Below, piece after piece: positions 1-60,092 of a DNA stretch of 64,000 bases. This DNA is from an uncultured Nitrososphaerota archaeon (lineage in GTDB: Archaea; Thermoproteota; Nitrososphaeria; Nitrososphaerales; Gagatemarchaeaceae). The stretch's first letter is position 1. Each line of letters opens with the position of its first letter. The position numbers and the translations under genes were made by a program. Location of the stretch: the NCBI GenBank assembly GCA_963703285.1, contig OY969807.1:96001-160000 (forward strand), given 5' to 3'. The notes under the pieces were generated by a model that was given only the letters and a program-made list of their open reading frames with translations, was not told the DNA's origin and searched no databases.

Positions 1-140
1 TAGGCCAGCAGCCTGACTATGTACTCGAGGAGAGGCCTCCTCTTGGTACCTATGGGTATCATGGTCTTCTGGAAGTAGTTGGAGAGCGGCCTCAGCCTTG
101 TCCCTTCCCCGCCGCAGAGGACCGCCGCCTTGGTAACCAT
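1..140 (-). CDS. NDP-sugar pyrophosphorylase / nucleotidyltransferase, N-terminal part (runs off window)
   Basis: Hand translation from ATG at 140: MVTKAAVLCGGEGTRLRPLSNYFQKTMIPIG, matching the GGxGTRLRPL..PK motif. Confidence 0.85.
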   Translation of the reverse strand, partial: MVTKAAVLCGGEGTRLRPLSNYFQKTMIPIGTKRRPLLEYIVRLLA

Positions 141-15642: not shown

Positions 15643-16915
15643 TATCCGAGAGGATTCACCCTCCATACCCTGAACGTAACTTCACCTGCGACGCGTGGTG
15701 CTTAAAGGCGATTCTGGACTAAAGAGCAGGAGGTAAGCGGTTCTCGATTACCTACAAACTTCGAGTCTACCCGACGAAGACTCAGTACAGAATCATGTCG
15801 GAAACAATCGAGACTTGCAGGAGGTTGCACAACGAGTTACTAGAGGACAGAATTGAGCATGGAACAAATTGCTTCGCTCAGAAAAGAGCTCTCACCGCCT
15901 CCCGAAGGGGTAACAAATTCCTAAGCGCAGTCAATGCCCAAGTGCTACAAAACGTAGCCTTTAGGCTTGATAATGCGTTTGAGCGGTTTTTCGCTGGTCT
16001 CTCCCGTGCACCGAGATTTAAGCGAAGGGGCAGGTACAATTCTTTCACTTATCCCCAACTTGGTGGTTTCAGGATTGTTAGTGGAAAGCTTCGGCTTTCC
16101 AGAATAGGCTTACTCACAGCAAAACTGACCCGTCCAATAGAAGGGATTCAGAAGACGTGCACGATCGTTAGAGACATAGACCGCTGGTATGCCTGCATAA
16201 CCTCAGAGGAGGAACCGTCTGGACAGGTCGTAATGGAATCGGAGCGACCTCCAGTCGGGGTTGATTTAGGAATTCCAAACATTGTCACTCTCAGCAACGG
16301 CAAGACTGTAGAGAACCCGAGATTCCTCAATTCTTCAACATCTCGCCTCAAACGTCTTCAGCGAGAATTATCGAGGAAAAAGAAGGGTTCTAACAACCAA
16401 GAGAGGGCACGAACGTTGCTTGCTAAAGCTTGGCGCAAAGTCAGGAACTCGCGATTGGACTTCTTACACAAAGTCTCAGCAGAACTTGCTGAGGACTACT
16501 CAACCATAGTTTTCGAAGATCTTCGCATTACGAACATGACCAAGAACCGCAATCTAGCATCGGCAATAATGGATGCGTCATGGGGAGAGCTACGTCAGTT
16601 GACTGCCTACAAGGCAGAACGACGTGGCGGACGAGTAATCCTCGTCAACCCCAGTAGGACATCGCAGAAATGCTCGAGATGCGGCGAGATAGTCAAGAAG
16701 GAACTCTCTGAACGAGTACACGACTGTCCGAACTGCGGTTTGGTCATAAACAGGGATGTCAACGCGGCAAGGAACGTACTCAGAGCGGGCCTGGAACGGG
16801 CCTGTGTGGAGGAACAGCCTCTACTTGTCCAACGCAGGGGATCAAGCATGTTCGTTCCCGTGAAACAAGAAGTTCAAGACGCGAAGCACAACGGCTTCAG
16901 CCTTGGGTAGTTCAA
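15643..16915 (+). mobile_element. IS200/IS605-family TnpB-only (IS1341-like) element
   Basis: Lower-GC block; right-end hairpin CAACGGCTTCAGCCTTG then GGTAGTTCAA; TGAT just left of the putative left end; no tnpA; left boundary approximate. Confidence 0.75.
15747..16910 (+). CDS. tnpB: RNA-guided endonuclease TnpB
   Basis: TYKLRVYPT N-terminal motif upstream of first ATG (15795); GVDLG, VFEDL, CSRC/CPNC, NRDVNAARN intact. Confidence 0.93.
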   Translation: MTYKLRVYPTKTQYRIMSETIETCRRLHNELLEDRIEHGTNCFAQKRALTASRRGNKFLSAVNAQVLQNVAFRLDNAFERFFAGLSRAPRFKRRGRYNSFTYPQLGGFRIVSGKLRLSRIGLLTAKLTRPIEGIQKTCTIVRDIDRWYACITSEEEPSGQVVMESERPPVGVDLGIPNIVTLSNGKTVENPRFLNSSTSRLKRLQRELSRKKKGSNNQERARTLLAKAWRKVRNSRLDFLHKVSAELAEDYSTIVFEDLRITNMTKNRNLASAIMDASWGELRQLTAYKAERRGGRVILVNPSRTSQKCSRCGEIVKKELSERVHDCPNCGLVINRDVNAARNVLRAGLERACVEEQPLLVQRRGSSMFVPVKQEVQDAKHNGFSLG

Positions 16916-17469
16916 TAGACCATCAGCTGCTTCTCTTCGAGGAGGACGTGCAGGTTGTTCACGGCCCTGTAGACCTCGCTCTCCCTCTTCGCCCCGGTGC
17001 AGACTAGCTTCCCGGACGCGAAGAGCAGTATCACAGTCTTGGGGTCGGCCATCCTGTGGATGAGGCCGGGGAACTGCTCGGGCTCGTACATCGACTTCGG
17101 GAGCTGCCTCGCGGCTTCCTCTAGGTGCACCTTCCCCCCCAGGTTGGCGGAGGCGACGATGTTCTGTATCTCTATTTCAGCCTCGTTCTTGATGGGGATG
17201 CTGCCCTTCTTCAGGCGCCTGACTACCTCCTGGACCGCTTTCCTCGCCTGCTCCTCGGACTTGGCTCCGGTGCAGACCATCTTGCCCGAGCTGAAAATCA
17301 GCGTCGCCGTCTTGGGGGTCTTCAGCCTGAAGACCAGTCCAGGGAACTGGTCAGGGTGGTACTCCACGTCGACGAAGTTCTTGGTTATCTGGTTAAGGTC
17401 GACCGTCTGGTTTATGGAGGCCGAAGCGACTACGTTCTCAATGCTGACTATCGCCTTTGTTTGGGGCAT
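16912..17469 (-). CDS. tbp: TATA-box binding protein
   Basis: Two repeats of NVVASA / YxPxQFPGL / LIFSSGKMVCTGAK. Confidence 0.98.
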   Translation of the reverse strand: MPQTKAIVSIENVVASASINQTVDLNQITKNFVDVEYHPDQFPGLVFRLKTPKTATLIFSSGKMVCTGAKSEEQARKAVQEVVRRLKKGSIPIKNEAEIEIQNIVASANLGGKVHLEEAARQLPKSMYEPEQFPGLIHRMADPKTVILLFASGKLVCTGAKRESEVYRAVNNLHVLLEEKQLMVY

Positions 17470-45343: not shown

Positions 45344-45676
45344 GCTGGGTTCTGTTAAGTTGATGGGCCGTCCTTCGGACTCTGGGCGCTGTAAACCTTC
45401 GGGCCACGACTGGTGTTCTGAATGACGATTAGGTCTGTGGGTGAATGGAATTCTGCGTGTGGCTAGCAAGGCGCCTACGCCCAAGCCGACGGGTATCAGC
45501 CATATCGCATTCATCCACGCTACTTGTCCGCACGCTGTGCTACATATTCCCTGACACGGTGGAAGTGGTGTCAATGTGCCGCAGTAGACCTGTATCCCAG
45601 CCACTGCCAGGATTAGTTCTATTGCAGCAAATGGTGCAAATCCGACCAGAAAGTTCTGAACGGTGACGTGGTTCAT
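45053..45676 (-). CDS. Cargo ORF: two-TM protein with Cys-rich loop, reads out through the TIR
   Basis: TM-CGTLTPLPPCQGICSTACG-TM in first ~75 aa; GRPINLTEP is the TIR; remainder is antisense to the dehydrogenase gene. Confidence 0.5.
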   Translation of the reverse strand: MNHVTVQNFLVGFAPFAAIELILAVAGIQVYCGTLTPLPPCQGICSTACGQVAWMNAIWLIPVGLGVGALLATRRIPFTHRPNRHSEHQSWPEGLQRPESEGRPINLTEPSSKVRGNRLRHLPRPRGPPEVIGDVLPFSEDLGSRLHNRLPRAALPQVFEHPGGRENRRRWVDFVEPLVLRGAPVCGLEHRVVVSYVRRVDQRDGPH

Positions 45677-45848
45677 CTTGCTTCAGTGTCCTGAGTTGAC
45701 TGGAAGGATATAGACGTGCTGTCACGAACGCGTCTTGAAGAATCAGCCTCATGGCCCGTCAACTTAACAAAGCCCATGAAAGCGACTTATGGCCCGACCC
45801 TTAACAGGCCCAAAATCCTCAGGTGTGGCCCATCAAGTTAACAGAGCC
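45348..45848. mobile_element. Non-autonomous TIR element with cargo ORF
   Basis: 22-bp TIRs GGTTCTGTTAAGTTGATGGGCC / GGCCCATCAAGTTAACAGAGCC (20/22); TGAGCTG(G) directly repeated on both flanks; lower GC. Confidence 0.85.
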
Positions 45849-56369: not shown

Positions 56370-57428
56370 CTATCTCCAGCCGTCCCTCACGCCCTTGGAG
56401 TAGACCTTCCAGTACGGGTCGAGCTTCGGCGGGACGTAGCTCTGATTCCGACCCCGCCAAGCGACCCGAAGCCTCGGGCCACTCCCGCCGACCACCCCTA
56501 CGCCGAACGACTCTATCCCGCTGCCGGCCAGCGCCTTCATCAACTCGGGCGAGCGATCGGGCCTGCAGGCGACGAGGAGAGTCCCCTCGCTTATCGTCGT
56601 GAGCGGGTCGATCCCGAAAGCCTCGCAGACCGACCGACTCTCGCGCGTCACGTGGATCCTATCGCGCTCGATCTGCAGCGTCCTGCCGCTCGAGGACGCG
56701 AGCTCATAGAGGCCCCCCAGGACGCCCCCCTCGGTAGCGTCGTGCATCGCGGTCACCCCCGACCCCCTAATGCCGACCGAGGACGCCGTCAGGGAGTCCT
56801 CCAGCGTGGAACACCTGCGGATGTACCCTGCGGCCCTCCTGGCGGCCTTGGTCCCCACACGGGTCTCTGTCGTCTCCGGGAAGGCGAGCGCCAGTACCGC
56901 CGTGGCTTCGATGGCGGCTCCCTTGGTCATGACCACCACATCGCCCTCCTGAATCATCCGGGGAGTGACGTACTCGTCCTCCCCGGCTGTCGCCATCATC
57001 ATGCCTCCCCCGACGACCGTGTAGTCCGAACCCGGATACCTGCCCGAGTGGCCACCGATGATGGCTATTCCCAACCTCCTGCACTCGCTGCCGACCGCCT
57101 CCACATACCTCTCGAGGTCGTCGGCCGCCAACGAGGGAGGCAGGTTGTAGTCCAGGACCGCGAACTGCGGACCGACCGCGCTCGTCGCTAGGTCAGAGGC
57201 GAGGGCGTGGACCGATAACCAGGCAGAATCCTCCATCCCTATGGCCGGGATCATCGAGAGCGGGTCAGATGTGACGACCATAACCCTCCGCGACCCCAGG
57301 GATAGGACCGCGTTGTCGAGCCCCATACCCGGGCCGACCAGGACAGCCGGGTTCTTCGCCCCCGTGTTCTTGAGAATGACCCGCCTCAGGAAATCCCGGT
57401 CCACCTTCCCAAGGCCTCCCTTCGCCAA
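56370..57428 (-). CDS. AIR synthase/HypE-related protein
   Basis: GPGMGLD, TSDP, IGGHSG, AMHDATEGG, ISEGTL. Confidence 0.85.
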   Translation of the reverse strand: MAKGGLGKVDRDFLRRVILKNTGAKNPAVLVGPGMGLDNAVLSLGSRRVMVVTSDPLSMIPAIGMEDSAWLSVHALASDLATSAVGPQFAVLDYNLPPSLAADDLERYVEAVGSECRRLGIAIIGGHSGRYPGSDYTVVGGGMMMATAGEDEYVTPRMIQEGDVVVMTKGAAIEATAVLALAFPETTETRVGTKAARRAAGYIRRCSTLEDSLTASSVGIRGSGVTAMHDATEGGVLGGLYELASSSGRTLQIERDRIHVTRESRSVCEAFGIDPLTTISEGTLLVACRPDRSPELMKALAGSGIESFGVGVVGGSGPRLRVAWRGRNQSYVPPKLDPYWKVYSKGVRDGWR

Positions 57429-57454
57429 GGCGTATCGGTGCCCGCATTCTCTTC

Positions 57455-58810
57455 GGTTCTGTTAAGTCTTCGGGTAATGCCCGAGGCTGTTAAACATCGG
57501 GCGATGACCGCCACTCAACTTGCTGGCATCGACTCTGAGGATTACCGTCCGCGTCGGGTTCCCCCTCATTGTTTCACTTGCCAGCCCTTTCTCCCTGGCC
57601 ACAAAATCAGCTTGTTGCGAGCGGCCTTGTGGCTTTGGACGGGAACTCGCGAACCTCGCAAGTCCCCTCTTGGATAGATTGAGGGCCGCGTTAACGTCCC
57701 TGTCCATCCATGTCTTACAGGTCTGACAACACAGCATCCTCTGATGCGCGACATCACCCTTCACAGGGCTGTGAGTCCTCTCCCCACACGCCGAGCACTC
57801 CGAGGAGGAGCCGTAGGTATCAGACTTGGTAAGCGGAATCTTGGTCAATCCTTTCCATGCGGCCTTGTATTCGAGCATCTGCTTGACCTTCCAGTGCGGC
57901 CACGAGTCAATCGGAATCGATAGTCCTCGCCCTGACCATTCCTTCTCCGATACATCTTCCTGATGCCGGTGAGGTCTTCGAGAGCGAGCGCCGCGCCATT
58001 TCTTGAGGCTGTATCAACGATGAAGTTCGTAGTCGCGTGGAGCATCTGATCTGTCCTGTTGTAACATCGCTTCCAGTATTTCCGAGAAAGTTGCCTCCTG
58101 ATTCTAACATCGTTCCTCTTGAACGACCCGACGATCTCTCTCGTCGTCTGCCGAATCTTCACGGCCTTCGTCATGTCCACCTGAATCACGCTATCCTTGT
58201 CTCCAAATGTGAGGTTCTTCTCATTCCTATCCACGCCATACACCGTCTTGACCGGCGCGGGTTCGACCTCCTCTGAGTAGCAGAACGAGAGATTGTCTGG
58301 TGTTATCGTGAGACTCCTCGTCTTTTTCCCTTCGAGAGTTTCAATCACGTGAGGATTGAGTTGGACATCGAAGTATCTGTCTCGCGCCAGAGGTAAGAAC
58401 AGCCTGCCCTTCATTGTAACAAAGAACCCTGAGATTATGCAAACTTTCTCCTTCAAAGGCTTCAGATGCTTCGTCTCAGCCTCCCGCTTCTCAGATTTTT
58501 TCCTGCTCGCCACGACCTCACATGCTCGTCCTATCGCCGCTGTCTTGTAGCACGAAGGCAGCTTCACATCCTTGAGTGTCCGATAGAACTCTTTCATCCC
58601 CTTCCTGTTATCTATCCCGTGCTCCTGAGCGTAGTTGACAGCGTTGTAGGTCAGAGTCAGGCACTCGCCGAGGAGGCCTCGTAGTTCTTCCCCATCAATT
58701 GACAGAGAGACAGACTTTGTAGCTCGCAATGACTAATCATACGACTATGGGATATAACCGCCACCCGGGGGGTTAACAGGCGAACTCATCACCAAGGACT
58801 TAACTGAAGC
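57455..58810. mobile_element. TIR-bounded, TSD-flanked element carrying tnpB
   Basis: GGTTCTGTTAAGTC 57455-68 vs GACTTAACTGAAGC 58797-810 (12/14); TTCTCTTC at 57447-54 and 58811-18. Confidence 0.85.
57462..58729 (-). pseudogene. tnpB: TnpB-family nuclease with 1-nt deletion near 57907 (decay or sequencing error)
   Basis: YGVDRN, LALEDL, (N)SWPHW, EYKA, CSAC/CQTC, MDRDVNAALN across two frames. Confidence 0.88.
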
Positions 58811-58856
58811 TTCTCTTCTTGAGCTTTTATACCTGCACCCGACCCCGCGTGCAGTT

Positions 58857-60092
58857 TTGCCTACGAGGATCGTAGTCCATTACGGCGAGATAGGGACCAA
58901 GGGGGCGAACAGACAGGTCTTCGAGGCAAGCCTTCGCAGAAACATCATCTCCGCCTTGCGCCCCGTCTCGCAGCCGAAGGTGAGGCTCGTCGAGAACCGC
59001 TTCTTCGTCGAGGTGGAGGAGGACGAGGCACCCGAGGCCAAGAGATTGCTCGCCAGAATCTTCGGCGTCGCCTGGTTCGCCCAGGTGCAGAGCGCCCCGC
59101 TGGAATACGCCGCAATAAGGGAGACCGCCGTCCGGGCTCTGTCCGGGAGCCAGAGCGGGACCACCTTCAGAGTCAGCGTCAGGAGGCCGAACAAGTCCTT
59201 CGAGATGAAGTCTCAGGAGCTGGCCGGGAAGCTCGGGGAGGACTTGATCGAGAAGCTCGGGATGAAGGTCGACCTCTCATTTCCCGACACGACGGTCTTC
59301 GTGGACGTAATCTCAAGGGAGGCGCTCGTGTACCGCGAGCGCCTCAAGGGACCAGGAGGGTTGCCGGTCGGCGTCAGCGGCTCGGTCATGCACCTCCTCT
59401 CCGGGGGGATTGACTCCCCGGTCGCGGCCTGGCTGATGATGAAGCGAGGATGCGCCCCCGTCTACCTGCACTTCTACGTGGCACCGAGTGTGGAACCCAT
59501 CCTAGAGAGCAAGATAGGGCGACTCGTCCGCATCCTCTCCCAGTACGGGGGCGGCTCACAACTCATCCTCATACCCTTCGCCCCCTACCAGCTCGCCACC
59601 ACCGAACTCCCTCCCGAGTTCGAGCCCACGGTCTTCCGGCGGTTCATGAGGATGGTTGCGGAGACCCTTGCCAGGAGCCTCGACCTCCCCGCCCTCTCCA
59701 CGGGCGACAACCTGGCGCAGGTAGCGTCCCAGACGCTTCAGAACATCGCTTGCATAGACAGTGGCAGCTCCATGCCCACCTTCAGGCCACTACTGGGATA
59801 CGACAAGGACGAGATAGTCAGGCTGGCGAGACAGATTGGCACCTACGAGGTCTCCATCGAGGACTACAGGGACTGCTGCTCAATCGTCTCGAGGCACCCC
59901 AAGACGAGGATGAAGATTGCAGACGTCGACGAAGCGTCAAGACGGCTGGACTTCCAAGGGCTCGCTGACCGCTCCGTCGCCATGGGTCACATAGCCTCGT
60001 TCCCGGAGGGCGCAGTTGACCTTAGGCCCCTTGGCGAGGTACTTGCGAAGACCCGACGAGAGGGCGAGCTCGGTCTCCAGCGTGCCCACTAG
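58857..60092 (+). CDS. thiI: tRNA 4-thiouridine synthase ThiI
   Basis: HYGEIGTKG.NR, THUMP domain, LLSGGIDSPVA, QVASQT, DCC. Confidence 0.93.
   Translation: MPTRIVVHYGEIGTKGANRQVFEASLRRNIISALRPVSQPKVRLVENRFFVEVEEDEAPEAKRLLARIFGVAWFAQVQSAPLEYAAIRETAVRALSGSQSGTTFRVSVRRPNKSFEMKSQELAGKLGEDLIEKLGMKVDLSFPDTTVFVDVISREALVYRERLKGPGGLPVGVSGSVMHLLSGGIDSPVAAWLMMKRGCAPVYLHFYVAPSVEPILESKIGRLVRILSQYGGGSQLILIPFAPYQLATTELPPEFEPTVFRRFMRMVAETLARSLDLPALSTGDNLAQVASQTLQNIACIDSGSSMPTFRPLLGYDKDEIVRLARQIGTYEVSIEDYRDCCSIVSRHPKTRMKIADVDEASRRLDFQGLADRSVAMGHIASFPEGAVDLRPLGEVLAKTRREGELGLQRAH

What the first reader, a model, noticed from the sequence alone, without database searches (positions are those of the whole stretch)
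57447..58818. TnpB nuclease carried in a TIR transposon with an 8-bp target-site duplication
Seen: tnpB (all three RuvC acidic motifs and the Zn finger, one frameshift) lies between inverted ends GGTTCTGTTAAGTC and GACTTAACTGAAGC. TTCTCTTC is exactly duplicated outside both ends. The tnpB stop TAA (57462-64) is inside the TIR and there is no transposase gene. Known: prokaryotic TnpB normally travels with Y1 (IS200/605) or serine (IS607) transposases, which have no TIRs or TSDs. GGTTCTGTT ends with 8-bp duplications typify IS6-family DDE elements (IS257/IS1216); IS1595 elements also make 8-bp duplications. Inference: TnpB has been captured by a non-autonomous DDE-mobilised vehicle, a prokaryotic parallel to Fanzor capture by eukaryotic TIR transposons.
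Basis: partly seen in the sequence, partly recalled or inferred. Interest (0 to 1): 0.9.

Follow-up and report, generated by a model that had tools for sequence, protein, structure and literature searches.

The report
TnpB riding an IS6-like transposon
A 1.36-kb mobile element in a soil archaeon carries a (here broken) RNA-guided nuclease gene, tnpB, between the inverted ends and 8-bp target duplications of an IS6-like DDE transposon instead of the usual IS605/IS607 ends.

Summary
Window 57455-58810 is a 1,356-bp element with imperfect terminal inverted repeats starting GGTTCTGT. It is flanked by an exact 8-bp duplication, TTCTCTTC. Its only gene is tnpB, broken by a 1-nt deletion.

The architecture recurs. 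Five more copies lie in this genome. Among 72 distinct elements from Nitrososphaerota and neighbouring archaeal MAGs, 34 still show 8-bp duplications.

The same genome holds autonomous IS6-like (DDE_Tnp_IS240) transposons. They have near-identical ends (17 of 19 bases), 8-bp duplications and the same target signature, an insertion about 6 bp upstream of a TATA-like box. The genome has no Y1 transposase.

A covarying omega-RNA-like structure ends exactly at the transposon tip, and its last helix is built from the inverted repeat. So tnpB is integrated into the IS6-like element, not nested as an IS605 inside an unrelated MITE.

Its novelty is lower than assumed. DDE-associated, TIR-flanked prokaryotic TnpBs and trans-mobilised solo TnpBs were reported in 2023, naming IS630, ISL2 and IS1031. 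An IS6-like partner, the fusion of inverted repeat and omega-RNA, and targeting of promoter edges appear undescribed in the texts I could read.

The parts
57447..57454 (.). Target-site duplication, copy beside the right end (RE, tnpB 3' side): TTCTCTTC
   Evidence: read directly; unique TSD+TIR solution; whole-genome scan.
57455..57473 (-). Right-end terminal inverted repeat (GGTTCTGTTAAGTC...). The tnpB stop codon TAA at 57462-57464 lies inside it.
   Evidence: It matches the IRR of autonomous element X at 17 of the first 19 bases. Homology to all other copies starts exactly at 57455.
57455..57598 (-). Omega-RNA-like structured RNA region. It overlaps the tnpB 3' end and stops at the transposon tip. 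Its last helix uses the GTTRAC of the inverted repeat.
   Evidence: Covariance model R1 matches G000:C1:153455-153598 at E 2.7e-25. This sequence was in the model's training set, but copies D, E and F were not and still score 5e-17 to 2e-12. Covariation.
57462..57878 (-). tnpB, C-terminal piece (138 aa): Zn finger, RuvC-III DRDVN, C-terminal tail translated from the RNA region
   Evidence: (PF07282, 9.4e-15).
57906..57910 (-). Place of the 1-nt deletion that breaks tnpB, after ...DYRFRL
   Evidence: alignment with intact copy B; table 4 (the related copy has a T 'put in behind 57906').
57845..58729 (-). tnpB, N-terminal piece (294 aa; TTG start at 58729): RuvC-I (GVDRNEKN) and RuvC-II (ALEDL)
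58730..58791 (-). Left-end untranslated region. It has a TATA-like box (minus-strand TTATAT, about 58751-58758) roughly 23-28 nt upstream of the tnpB start, and a subterminal second CTGTTAAC copy.
   Evidence: All six own-genome copies have a TATA-like box at the same place. The promoter function is inferred.
58792..58810 (-). Left-end terminal inverted repeat (...GACTTAACTGAAGC on the + strand)
58811..58818 (.). Target-site duplication, copy beside the left end: TTCTCTTC
58824..58832 (+). TATA-like box of the divergent host gene thiI (start TTG 58857), 5-6 nt beyond the duplication. This is the family's target signature.

Best explanation
Window 57455-58810 is a non-autonomous member of an archaeal IS6-like (IS240-type DDE) transposon family in which the transposase gene is replaced by a TnpB/omega-RNA module.

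Shown:
- The element has TIRs starting GGTTCTGT and makes 8-bp target duplications.
- The same architecture recurs in diverged copies in this genome and in many Nitrososphaerota and neighbouring archaeal MAGs.
- tnpB reads into the right inverted repeat.
- A covarying RNA structure ends at the transposon tip, with its last helix made from the repeat.
- Insertions sit about 6 bp upstream of a TATA-like box, usually with tnpB pointing away from it.

Inferred:
- Transposition is catalysed in trans by IS6-like transposases of elements such as X (G000:C1:1251536-1256161), which share ends, duplication length and target signature.
- The RNA is transcribed across the right end. Its guide is then the duplicated 8 bp plus the flank.
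- TnpB-RNA cuts an unoccupied allele (adjacent motif + target 8 bp + flank). Recombination with an occupied chromosome copy then copies the element in.
- IS6/IS26 relatives move by copy-in and do not excise. For such a transposon this would act as a drive that fixes new insertions, not as repair after excision.

The window copy itself is a relic, because tnpB is frameshifted. A ~94%-alike copy at another site in another species shows that the lineage moved recently.
For: Structure: TSD 8/8 and TIR 12/14 at the window copy.

Recurrence in the genome:
- Copy B has TSD AGGTGCTG (8/8) and copy C 7/8.
- Copies D and E (32-38% protein identity) have exact 8-bp TSDs.
- The whole-genome scan gives 7 pairs: A, B, C, E, X, Y and a 311-bp MITE.

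Recurrence elsewhere:
- The right-end motif is found in 63 of 80 loci.
- 23 elements have an exact 8-bp TSD, against 8 exact hits for 376 displaced control 8-mers.
- 34 of 72 distinct elements have a TSD (8/8, or 7/8 with IR >=9/14).
- Contigs of runs X3 and X5 give a further copy. It stops matching exactly at 57455 and has ATGATTCT on both sides.

Transposase:
- X and Y are DDE_Tnp_IS240. The genome has three such genes, no Y1_Tnp, and one resolvase, which sits beside an unrelated tnpB.
- X's IRR and the window's right end agree at 17 of 19 bases.
- 10 of 14 X-like loci in relatives have such ends plus exact 8-bp TSDs.
- The bacterial IS6/IS26 consensus is GGTTCTGTTGCAAA with 8-bp TSDs (PMC6807381, passages).

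Shared target signature:
- An AT-rich 7-mer lies 5-7 nt from the TSD in 24 of 34 TnpB elements (22 on the LE side, 3 on the RE side, 1 on both) and 8 of 12 autonomous elements. The rate at random genome positions is 2.3%.
- The position matrix peaks at -13..-7 only on the LE side.

RNA: 23 pairs, 94.5% of cells paired against 80.1% in shuffles, and 111 double-change cells against 39 (0 of 500 shuffles reach it). Slid controls give 24-46% paired.

TnpB looks active in other copies: D, E and DRD are invariant in five intact proteins, and it matches solved TnpB/Cas12f chains.

Insertion status: the flanking genes are adjacent in relatives, with 19-32 bp between aligned blocks in 6 genomes.

Mobility: a 94%-identical copy lies in a genome whose flanking genes are only 72-75% identical.

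Co-occurrence: 17 of 41 genomes have both genes, 4 TnpB only, 6 transposase only, 14 neither. Kin are not independent.
Against: - No element was found with the IS6-like transposase and tnpB in cis. The one near-neighbour (L066/L118) is two separate elements.
- Two genomes rich in these tnpB copies gave no IS6-like transposase at E<=1e-10: G021 (13 matches, 69% complete) and G014 (80% complete).
- Left-end repeats are often degenerate, as low as 2-5 of 14 matches.
- Only 34 of 72 distinct elements keep a recognisable TSD, and 17 of 80 loci failed the strict right-end motif. At least two of these still end ...CCAGAACC.
- Copies within this genome are only 72-75% identical, so there is no sign of a recent burst here.
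- No occupied/empty polymorphism was seen and no RNA run was available, so transcription, guide and TAM are inferred.
- No archaeal IS6-like element has been tested experimentally (PMC6807381). Copy-in transposition is therefore an extrapolation.
- The orientation bias relative to the TATA-like box is clear for TnpB elements (22 vs 3). It cannot be distinguished from that of autonomous elements (5 vs 3; Fisher p 0.09).
Confidence: 0.85

Rival explanations
1. An ordinary IS200/IS605 (IS1341-type) solo-tnpB element, moved by a Y1 TnpA, lies nested inside or beside an unrelated MITE whose ends supply the TIR and TSD.
For: Solo tnpB genes are routinely filed under IS200/IS605 (PMC6563490 and PMC13565253, passages). 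A short Pfam match is the only family call for the protein.
Against: The tnpB ORF and the covarying RNA run to the last bases of the inverted repeat, so there is no room for separate IS605 ends. The block conserved between copies starts exactly at the TIR tip. The right-end motif follows tnpB down to ~38% protein identity. The genome has no Y1_Tnp hit, while the control genomes do.
Confidence: 0.03
2. The element is a TIR/TSD transposon as described, but it is mobilised by a DDE transposase other than the IS6-like X/Y type (for example another family that makes 8-bp duplications), or it is no longer mobile anywhere.
For: No cis association was found. G021 and G014 have many copies but no detected IS6-like transposase. 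Left ends are degenerate. Only three transposase families were searched in the genome.
Against: X's ends match at 17 of 19 bases. Duplication length is the same. The same TATA-N6 target signature is seen in 8 of 12 autonomous and 24 of 34 TnpB elements. A 94%-alike copy at a new site in another species argues for recent mobility.
Confidence: 0.08
3. TnpB here has no role in the transposon's spread. It is a passenger or a domesticated or regulatory protein, and the conserved 3' RNA-like region reflects only protein coding and transposase binding sites.
For: The window copy is frameshifted. The C-terminal tail of TnpB is translated from the RNA region. A non-excising transposon has no obvious need for restorative homing (argument of the review PMC13565253).
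Against: The compensatory double changes (111 cells, 13 of 23 pairs) are not explained by coding or by a protein binding site. Two tnpB-less MITEs keep the RNA module, and the one with defined ends also keeps both ends. The catalytic residues are invariant in five intact copies.
Confidence: 0.15
4. The TIR and TSD at the window copy are chance similarities.
For: Other exact 8-mers and 8-nt inverted pairs recur inside the 1.4-kb region.
Against: The scans gave one solution per copy. The whole-genome scan gave 7 of 7 real elements. Exact TSDs were found in 23 elements against 8 of 376 control 8-mers.
Confidence: 0.01

Closest known systems
DDE-transposase-associated TnpB branches (DDE-1 to DDE-6) of Altae-Tran et al. 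2023, PNAS (PMC10691335; passages read)
   Same: A prokaryotic TnpB lies inside a transposon with symmetrical inverted terminal repeats. The tnpB 3' end is within 250 bp of a transposon end. Solo tnpB copies with the same ends as transposase-bearing elements are taken as mobilised in trans.
   Different: The partner named in that main text is IS630. The review PMC13565253 lists ISL2, IS630 and IS1031. Neither IS6, IS26 nor IS240 occurs in the PNAS main text. Here no cis transposase-tnpB element was found: tnpB occupies the transposase's place. The supplements that list the branches were closed, so I cannot exclude that this clade is one of them.
IS6/IS26 family and the archaeal 'IS6-like' ISs (Harmer & Hall 2019, PMC6807381; abstract and passages)
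   Same: Ends start GG with G at position 7. The first nine bases, GGTTCTGTT, equal the bacterial consensus GGTTCTGTTGCAAA. Duplications are 8 bp. The partner transposases hit Pfam DDE_Tnp_IS240. Archaeal TIRs are longer (>=18 bp), as here.
   Different: The element has no transposase of its own. It carries tnpB and a guide-RNA module. It shows a marked target preference next to TATA-like boxes, which I did not see in the passages I read of that paper. Cointegrate formation is untested for any archaeal member.
IS200/IS605 family, IS1341 group (solo tnpB)
   Same: A single tnpB gene with an omega-RNA-like region at its 3' end that reaches the element's right end. The protein has the DRDXN RuvC-III motif of 'typical' TnpBs.
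   Different: IS200/IS605 elements have no TIRs and make no TSDs, and they insert 3' of a fixed TAM (PMC13565253). This element has both TIRs and 8-bp TSDs, and its genome has no Y1 transposase.
Fanzor (eukaryotic TnpB homologues) in TIR/TSD DNA transposons (Bao & Jurka 2013, PMC3627910, listing and abstract only; review PMC13565253)
   Same: A TnpB-type nuclease is carried as cargo of DDE transposons that make TSDs.
   Different: Prokaryotic host, a compact TnpB of 390-425 aa, and no cis transposase. Homology to Fanzor was not examined here.
MITEs and transporter ISs (non-autonomous or cargo-carrying IS derivatives)
   Same: Ends and TSD match an autonomous family and mobilisation is presumably in trans. 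Tiny derivatives coexist: a 311-bp element and a ~500-bp element.
   Different: The cargo is an RNA-guided nuclease whose guide RNA shares sequence with the transposase-binding end.

Membership tests
IS200/IS605 (IS1341 group) | No terminal inverted repeats and no target-site duplication | tested here: not met
   TIR 12/14 and TSD 8/8 at the window copy. TSDs are present in 34 of 72 distinct elements. Family definition from PMC13565253.
IS200/IS605 (IS1341 group) | Mobilised by a Y1 HUH TnpA present in the genome or in related elements | tested here: not met
   PF01797 gives 0 hits in the 96%-complete single-contig genome, while control genomes ring. TnpA was not searched for in the other genomes.
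IS200/IS605 (IS1341 group) | Fixed TAM/target tetra- or pentanucleotide directly 5' of the left end | tested here: inconclusive
   The bases directly 5' of the left end are the variable TSD. Upstream of it there is T at -2 in 24 of 32 elements and a TATA-like block at -13..-7. Whether any of this is a TAM is unknown.
TnpB (RuvC-type RNA-guided nuclease) | RuvC-I D, RuvC-II E, RuvC-III D (DRDXN) and a Zn finger | tested here: met
   Invariant D167, E251, D343-R-D345, C335 and C338 in five intact copies. Pfam PF07282. Hits to solved TnpB/Cas12f chains. The window copy has the motifs but is frameshifted.
TnpB (RuvC-type RNA-guided nuclease) | Structured guide RNA (omega-RNA) encoded at the 3' end and reaching the element boundary | tested here: met
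   Covariation in 13 of 23 pairs, 0 of 500 shuffles as high. Model R1 finds all six tnpB copies and two tnpB-less loci in the genome. Expression and guide use are not testable here.
IS6/IS26 family (or archaeal IS6-like group) | TIRs beginning GG with G at position 7 | tested here: met
   Right ends are GGTTCTG... in A-F, X and Y. Left ends are more degenerate (GCTTCAG, GACTCTG, GGCACTG). Consensus from PMC6807381.
IS6/IS26 family (or archaeal IS6-like group) | 8-bp target-site duplication | tested here: met
IS6/IS26 family (or archaeal IS6-like group) | Encodes a DDE transposase of the IS240/IS26 type | tested here: not met
   There is no transposase ORF in the element. Such transposases are encoded elsewhere in the genome. 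The element is therefore at most a non-autonomous derivative.
IS6/IS26 family (or archaeal IS6-like group) | Copy-in transposition through cointegrates | not testable with these tools
   No experimental data exist for archaeal members (PMC6807381).
DDE-associated TnpB branches (PMC10691335) | Inverted terminal repeats around tnpB, with the tnpB 3' end within 250 bp of an end | tested here: met
DDE-associated TnpB branches (PMC10691335) | A DDE transposase gene next to tnpB within the same ends, in at least some members | tested here: not met
   None was found among 80 loci with 1.5-kb flanks plus the earlier loci. The one neighbour is a separate element. Only a sample of 489 relatives was seen.
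DDE-associated TnpB branches (PMC10691335) | Placement of the protein in one of the published DDE-1..6 branches | not tested
   Branch membership is given only in supplements, which were closed.

The most novel reading that the evidence does not exclude
A whole clade of archaeal TnpB/omega-RNA modules has replaced the transposase inside an IS6-like DDE transposon. The transposase-binding inverted repeat doubles as the last helix of the guide RNA. The transposon family is aimed at the upstream edge of archaeal promoters, about 6 bp before the TATA box. The T-rich bases between TATA box and insertion point then serve as TnpB's TAM. In that case the transposase's target choice and the nuclease's TAM coincide, as in IS605, and TnpB acts as a gene drive that fixes new insertions of a non-excising, copy-in transposon among chromosome copies. 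This would explain why 22 of 34 TnpB elements have the box on the left-end side and only 3 on the right-end side.
Probability: 0.25. Interest if true: 0.85.

Novelty: new variant of a known kind. Interest (0 to 1): 0.6.

Why it matters
TnpB is thought to persist because it restores IS605/IS607 elements after scarless excision. A stable, phylum-wide partnership with a DDE transposon whose bacterial relatives never excise would test that explanation. It would show that the guide-RNA module can be rebuilt around a foreign transposon end.

It also gives a prokaryotic counterpart to Fanzor capture by eukaryotic TIR transposons, involving a transposase family not named in the published main texts I could read.

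Two practical points follow. The family offers compact (390-425 aa) archaeal TnpBs with a well-defined RNA scaffold of roughly 120-145 nt. And the TATA-proximal insertion signature, if it is enzyme-driven, would be a rare case of promoter-targeted transposition in archaea.

Tried and rejected
- Rfam scan of 57300-58950: no meaningful match (one miRNA hit at E 0.87).
- Search for a cis transposase + tnpB element: tblastn of X and Y against all loci held gave only L066. A wider fetch (L118) showed it to be two separate elements.
- Third IS6-like transposase Z (G000:C1:319441-320607): no matching ends found nearby.
- Sequencing runs: no RNA holder was listed. Laying X1, X2, X3 and X5 gave no joints, so no empty allele was seen. 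X1 and X2 hold short identical pieces, including the occupied right junction.
- Exact single-copy TTCTCTTC empty site: not found. The relatives are other species (flanks 70-76% identical) with diverged spacers.
- Literature: five searches, plus passages of PMC10691335, PMC13565253, PMC6807381 and PMC6563490, gave no description of tnpB in IS6-type ends or of TATA-proximal targeting by archaeal IS6-like elements. Supplements were closed, so the DDE branches of PMC10691335 could not be checked. Papers outside the held library were not searched.
- Orientation difference between TnpB and autonomous elements: not significant (Fisher p 0.09).
- Not attempted: structure prediction, complex prediction, large protein-database searches, a TnpB tree.
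Full report
**1. The observation**

One search shows TTCTCTTC at 57447-57454 and at 58811-58818. Directly inside these lie GGTTCTGTTAAGTC (57455-57468) and GACTTAACTGAAGC (58797-58810), which are 12 of 14 complementary. The repeat finder ranks this terminal pair as the best inverted repeat of the region (17 nt, 82%).

Between the ends, on the minus strand, tnpB is split into 57845-58729 (294 aa) and 57462-57878 (138 aa). The second piece matches Pfam Cas12f1-like_TNB at 9.4e-15. The break is a 1-nt deletion near 57906-57910. A ~94%-alike copy in coded runs X3 and X5 has one extra T there. The stop TAA (57462-57464) lies in the repeat. No transposase ORF is inside the element.

The flanks are an AIR-synthase-related gene (56370-57428, minus) and thiI (58857-60092, plus).

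**2. More than chance**

Eight-base repeats alone are common in the region. Position and recurrence are what count.

- A scan for TSD >=7/8 abutting IR >=10/14 gave exactly one solution at each of the three close copies (A = window, B, C) and none at six other tnpB loci.
- By eye, the distant copies D and E (38% and 32% protein identity) have exact 8-bp duplications, and F has a decayed one. All six copies end ...GTTGACAGAACC or a near variant.
- An unbiased whole-genome search paired end motifs (up to 4 mismatches each) with matching 8-bp flanks. It returned 7 pairs, all real: A, B, C, E, two transposase-bearing elements X and Y, and a 311-bp MITE.

**3. The transposase**

X (G000:C1:1251536-1256161, 4,626 bp, TSD CGACAGCG) encodes a 406-aa protein that hits DDE_Tnp_IS240 at 4.7e-15, plus an N6-methylase-type restriction-modification protein. 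Y (1357534-1360318, 2,785 bp, TSD CCCCGAAG) encodes a 291-aa DDE_Tnp_IS240 protein (1.1e-21) plus four small ORFs.

X's right repeat and the window element's right end agree at 17 of the first 19 bases. The transposase ORF of X ends inside the repeat in the same frame as tnpB does.

The genome has three IS240-type genes and no Y1 transposase. It has one serine recombinase, which sits beside an unrelated tnpB.

In relatives, 10 of 14 X-like transposase loci are bounded by such ends and exact 8-bp duplications.

Harmer & Hall (PMC6807381; passages) give GGTTCTGTTGCAAA and 8 bp for bacterial IS6/IS26. They describe archaeal 'IS6' elements as distant relatives with longer TIRs and no experimental data.

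**4. Spread**

The search for related loci found 489 relatives and kept 80. Their record titles are Nitrososphaerota/Thaumarchaeota MAGs, some titled Bathyarchaeota, and one titled Methanomethylicota.

- The right-end motif was present in 63 of the 80 loci.
- Exact 8-bp duplications at the expected place were found in 23 elements, against 8 exact hits for 376 displaced control 8-mers.
- With 7/8 plus IR >=9/14 also allowed, 34 of 72 distinct elements have a duplication.
- Among 28 loci from the genus, 24 had the motif and 15 a duplication at 59-91 nt before the tnpB start.

**5. Insertion status and mobility**

None of the relatives searched has the element at this site. In 6 same-genus genomes the two flanking genes are matched 19-32 bp apart. 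Their spacers read ...TTCTTGAGCTTTTATACC once. The exact 8-mer is not preserved, because these are other species (flanks 70-76% identical).

A copy 94% identical to the window's element lies in a genome whose flanking genes are only 72-75% identical to the window's. Contigs of X3 and X5 hold such a copy. It stops matching exactly at 57455 and has ATGATTCT on both sides. So the lineage moved recently and probably between species.

**6. Not a nested IS605**

I aligned the last 170 nt before the right end from 39 elements. RNAalifold gives 23 pairs in 5 helices, 13 of them with compensatory changes.

Counted with controls:

| Measure | Observed | Control |
|---|---|---|
| Cells paired | 94.5% | 80.1% in shuffles; 24-46% when partners are slid |
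| Double-change cells | 111 | 39 in shuffles |
| Shuffles reaching the observed value | 0 of 500 | |

The last helix pairs an upstream GTTGAC(TC) with the (GA)GTTRAC of the inverted repeat. Only ...AGAACC remains before the flank.

A covariance model built from 38 of these sequences finds all six tnpB copies in the genome. Three of them were not in the training set (E 5e-17 to 2e-12). It also finds two tnpB-less loci. One is the 311-bp MITE with its own duplication.

The nuclease module and the DDE-type end are therefore one integrated unit.

**7. TnpB**

Five intact proteins (390-425 aa) keep D167, E251, D343-R-D345 and two Zn-finger cysteines. The DRDXN motif is that of 'typical' TnpBs (PMC10691335). 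phmmer finds solved TnpB/Cas12f chains, with an alignment spanning RuvC-I to RuvC-III.

**8. Target signature (new here)**

Upstream of the left-end duplication, the position matrix shows a TATTTAA-like block at -13..-7 (A/T in 22-27 of 32) and T at -2 (24 of 32). The mirrored right-end flank is flat.

| Elements | AT-rich 7-mer 5-7 nt from the duplication |
|---|---|
| TnpB elements (n = 34) | left side 22, right side 3, both sides 1 |
| Autonomous elements (n = 12) | one side 5, other side 3 |
| Random genome positions | 2.3% |

At A, B, C, X and Y a divergent ORF starts 31-44 nt beyond the duplication. The block is therefore most simply the TATA box of a neighbouring gene, and insertion is at the upstream edge of its promoter.

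The shared signature is further evidence that one machinery moves both kinds of element.

**9. Mechanism**

Shown: anatomy, recurrence, duplications, RNA covariation, target signature.

Inferred:
- Trans-mobilisation by X-type transposase.
- Read-through of the RNA into duplication plus flank, which then serves as guide.
- Cleavage of unoccupied alleles, followed by recombinational copying.

The last step rests on what is known for IS605/IS607 TnpB (review PMC13565253; Karvelis 2021 and the plasmid gene-drive preprint PMC11870625, seen only as listings). IS26-type elements move by copy-in and do not excise. The role here would therefore be a drive rather than a repair. I give that step about 40%.

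**10. Against**

- No cis transposase-tnpB element was found.
- G021 and G014 have many copies but no detected IS6-like transposase, in incomplete genomes.
- Left ends are degenerate.
- Within-genome copies are only 72-75% identical.
- There are no RNA data.

**11. Novelty**

PMC10691335 (passages) reports DDE-associated TnpB branches with inverted terminal repeats and solo TnpBs with the same ends mobilised in trans. It names IS630. The review adds ISL2 and IS1031. IS6, IS26 and IS240 do not occur in the PNAS main text. No held paper found or 65 describes this arrangement. Supplements were closed.

I therefore rate it a new variant of a known kind, with an undescribed partner family, an IR/omega-RNA fusion and a promoter-edge target signature.

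Noticed in passing
window 45348-45848 (G000:C1:141348-141848): A ~500-bp MITE-like element. Its 22-nt inverted ends (GG[T/C]TCTGTTAA[G/C]TTGATGGGCC) resemble the ends of the L042/L043-type TnpB elements. It has a 7-8-bp duplication (TGAGCTG[G]) and a TATA-like box 6 nt beyond one side.
   Followed up: partly
G000:C1:1229977-1230287 (L122) and G000:C1:1322813-1322924 (L126): Two tnpB-less loci that keep the omega-RNA-like module (R1 E 3.5e-17 and 7.2e-11). The first is a 311-bp element with both ends, an internal TATA-like box and an exact 8-bp duplication, TAGACCGA. They could supply extra guides to TnpB in trans.
   Followed up: partly
window 15795-16910 (+): A second, unrelated tnpB (371 aa, ~26% identical, classical ...SRTSQKCSRCG... 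finger). It ends one base before the stop of a convergent 185-aa ORF at 16912-17469 that looks like a TATA-binding protein by eye (not run through Pfam). No IS6-type ends were seen by the scans.
   Followed up: no
G000:C1:684737-686262: A serine recombinase (Resolvase, 6.6e-12) sits next to another distant tnpB copy, which looks like an IS607-type element. A near-identical solo tnpB lies at 634756-635499.
   Followed up: no
G000:C1:1251536-1256161 (L033) and 1357534-1360318 (L034): The autonomous IS6-like elements carry passengers. X has an 804-aa N6-methylase/HSDR_N-type restriction-modification protein. Y has four small ORFs, including a DUF5678 protein and an aspartyl-protease-like protein. 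X-like elements in relatives are 1,983-4,260 bp long, so cargo seems common.
   Followed up: partly
window 58824-58832 and the left-side flanks of 34 TnpB and 12 autonomous elements: The family inserts about 6 bp upstream of TATA-like boxes of neighbouring genes. TnpB elements are strongly oriented with tnpB pointing away (22 vs 3). Whether the transposase reads the DNA motif, reads the TBP/TFB complex, or selection does the sorting is open.
   Followed up: partly
both ends of copies A, B, C (e.g. window 57486-57493 and 58771-58778): Each end carries a second, subterminal CTGTTAAC-like copy about 31 bp inside the terminal one. The TIRs are therefore bipartite and about 48 bp long.
   Followed up: no
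G000:C1:319441-320607: A third IS240-type transposase gene (30-35% identical to X and Y) for which no matching ends were found. It may lie in a larger integrated element.
   Followed up: partly
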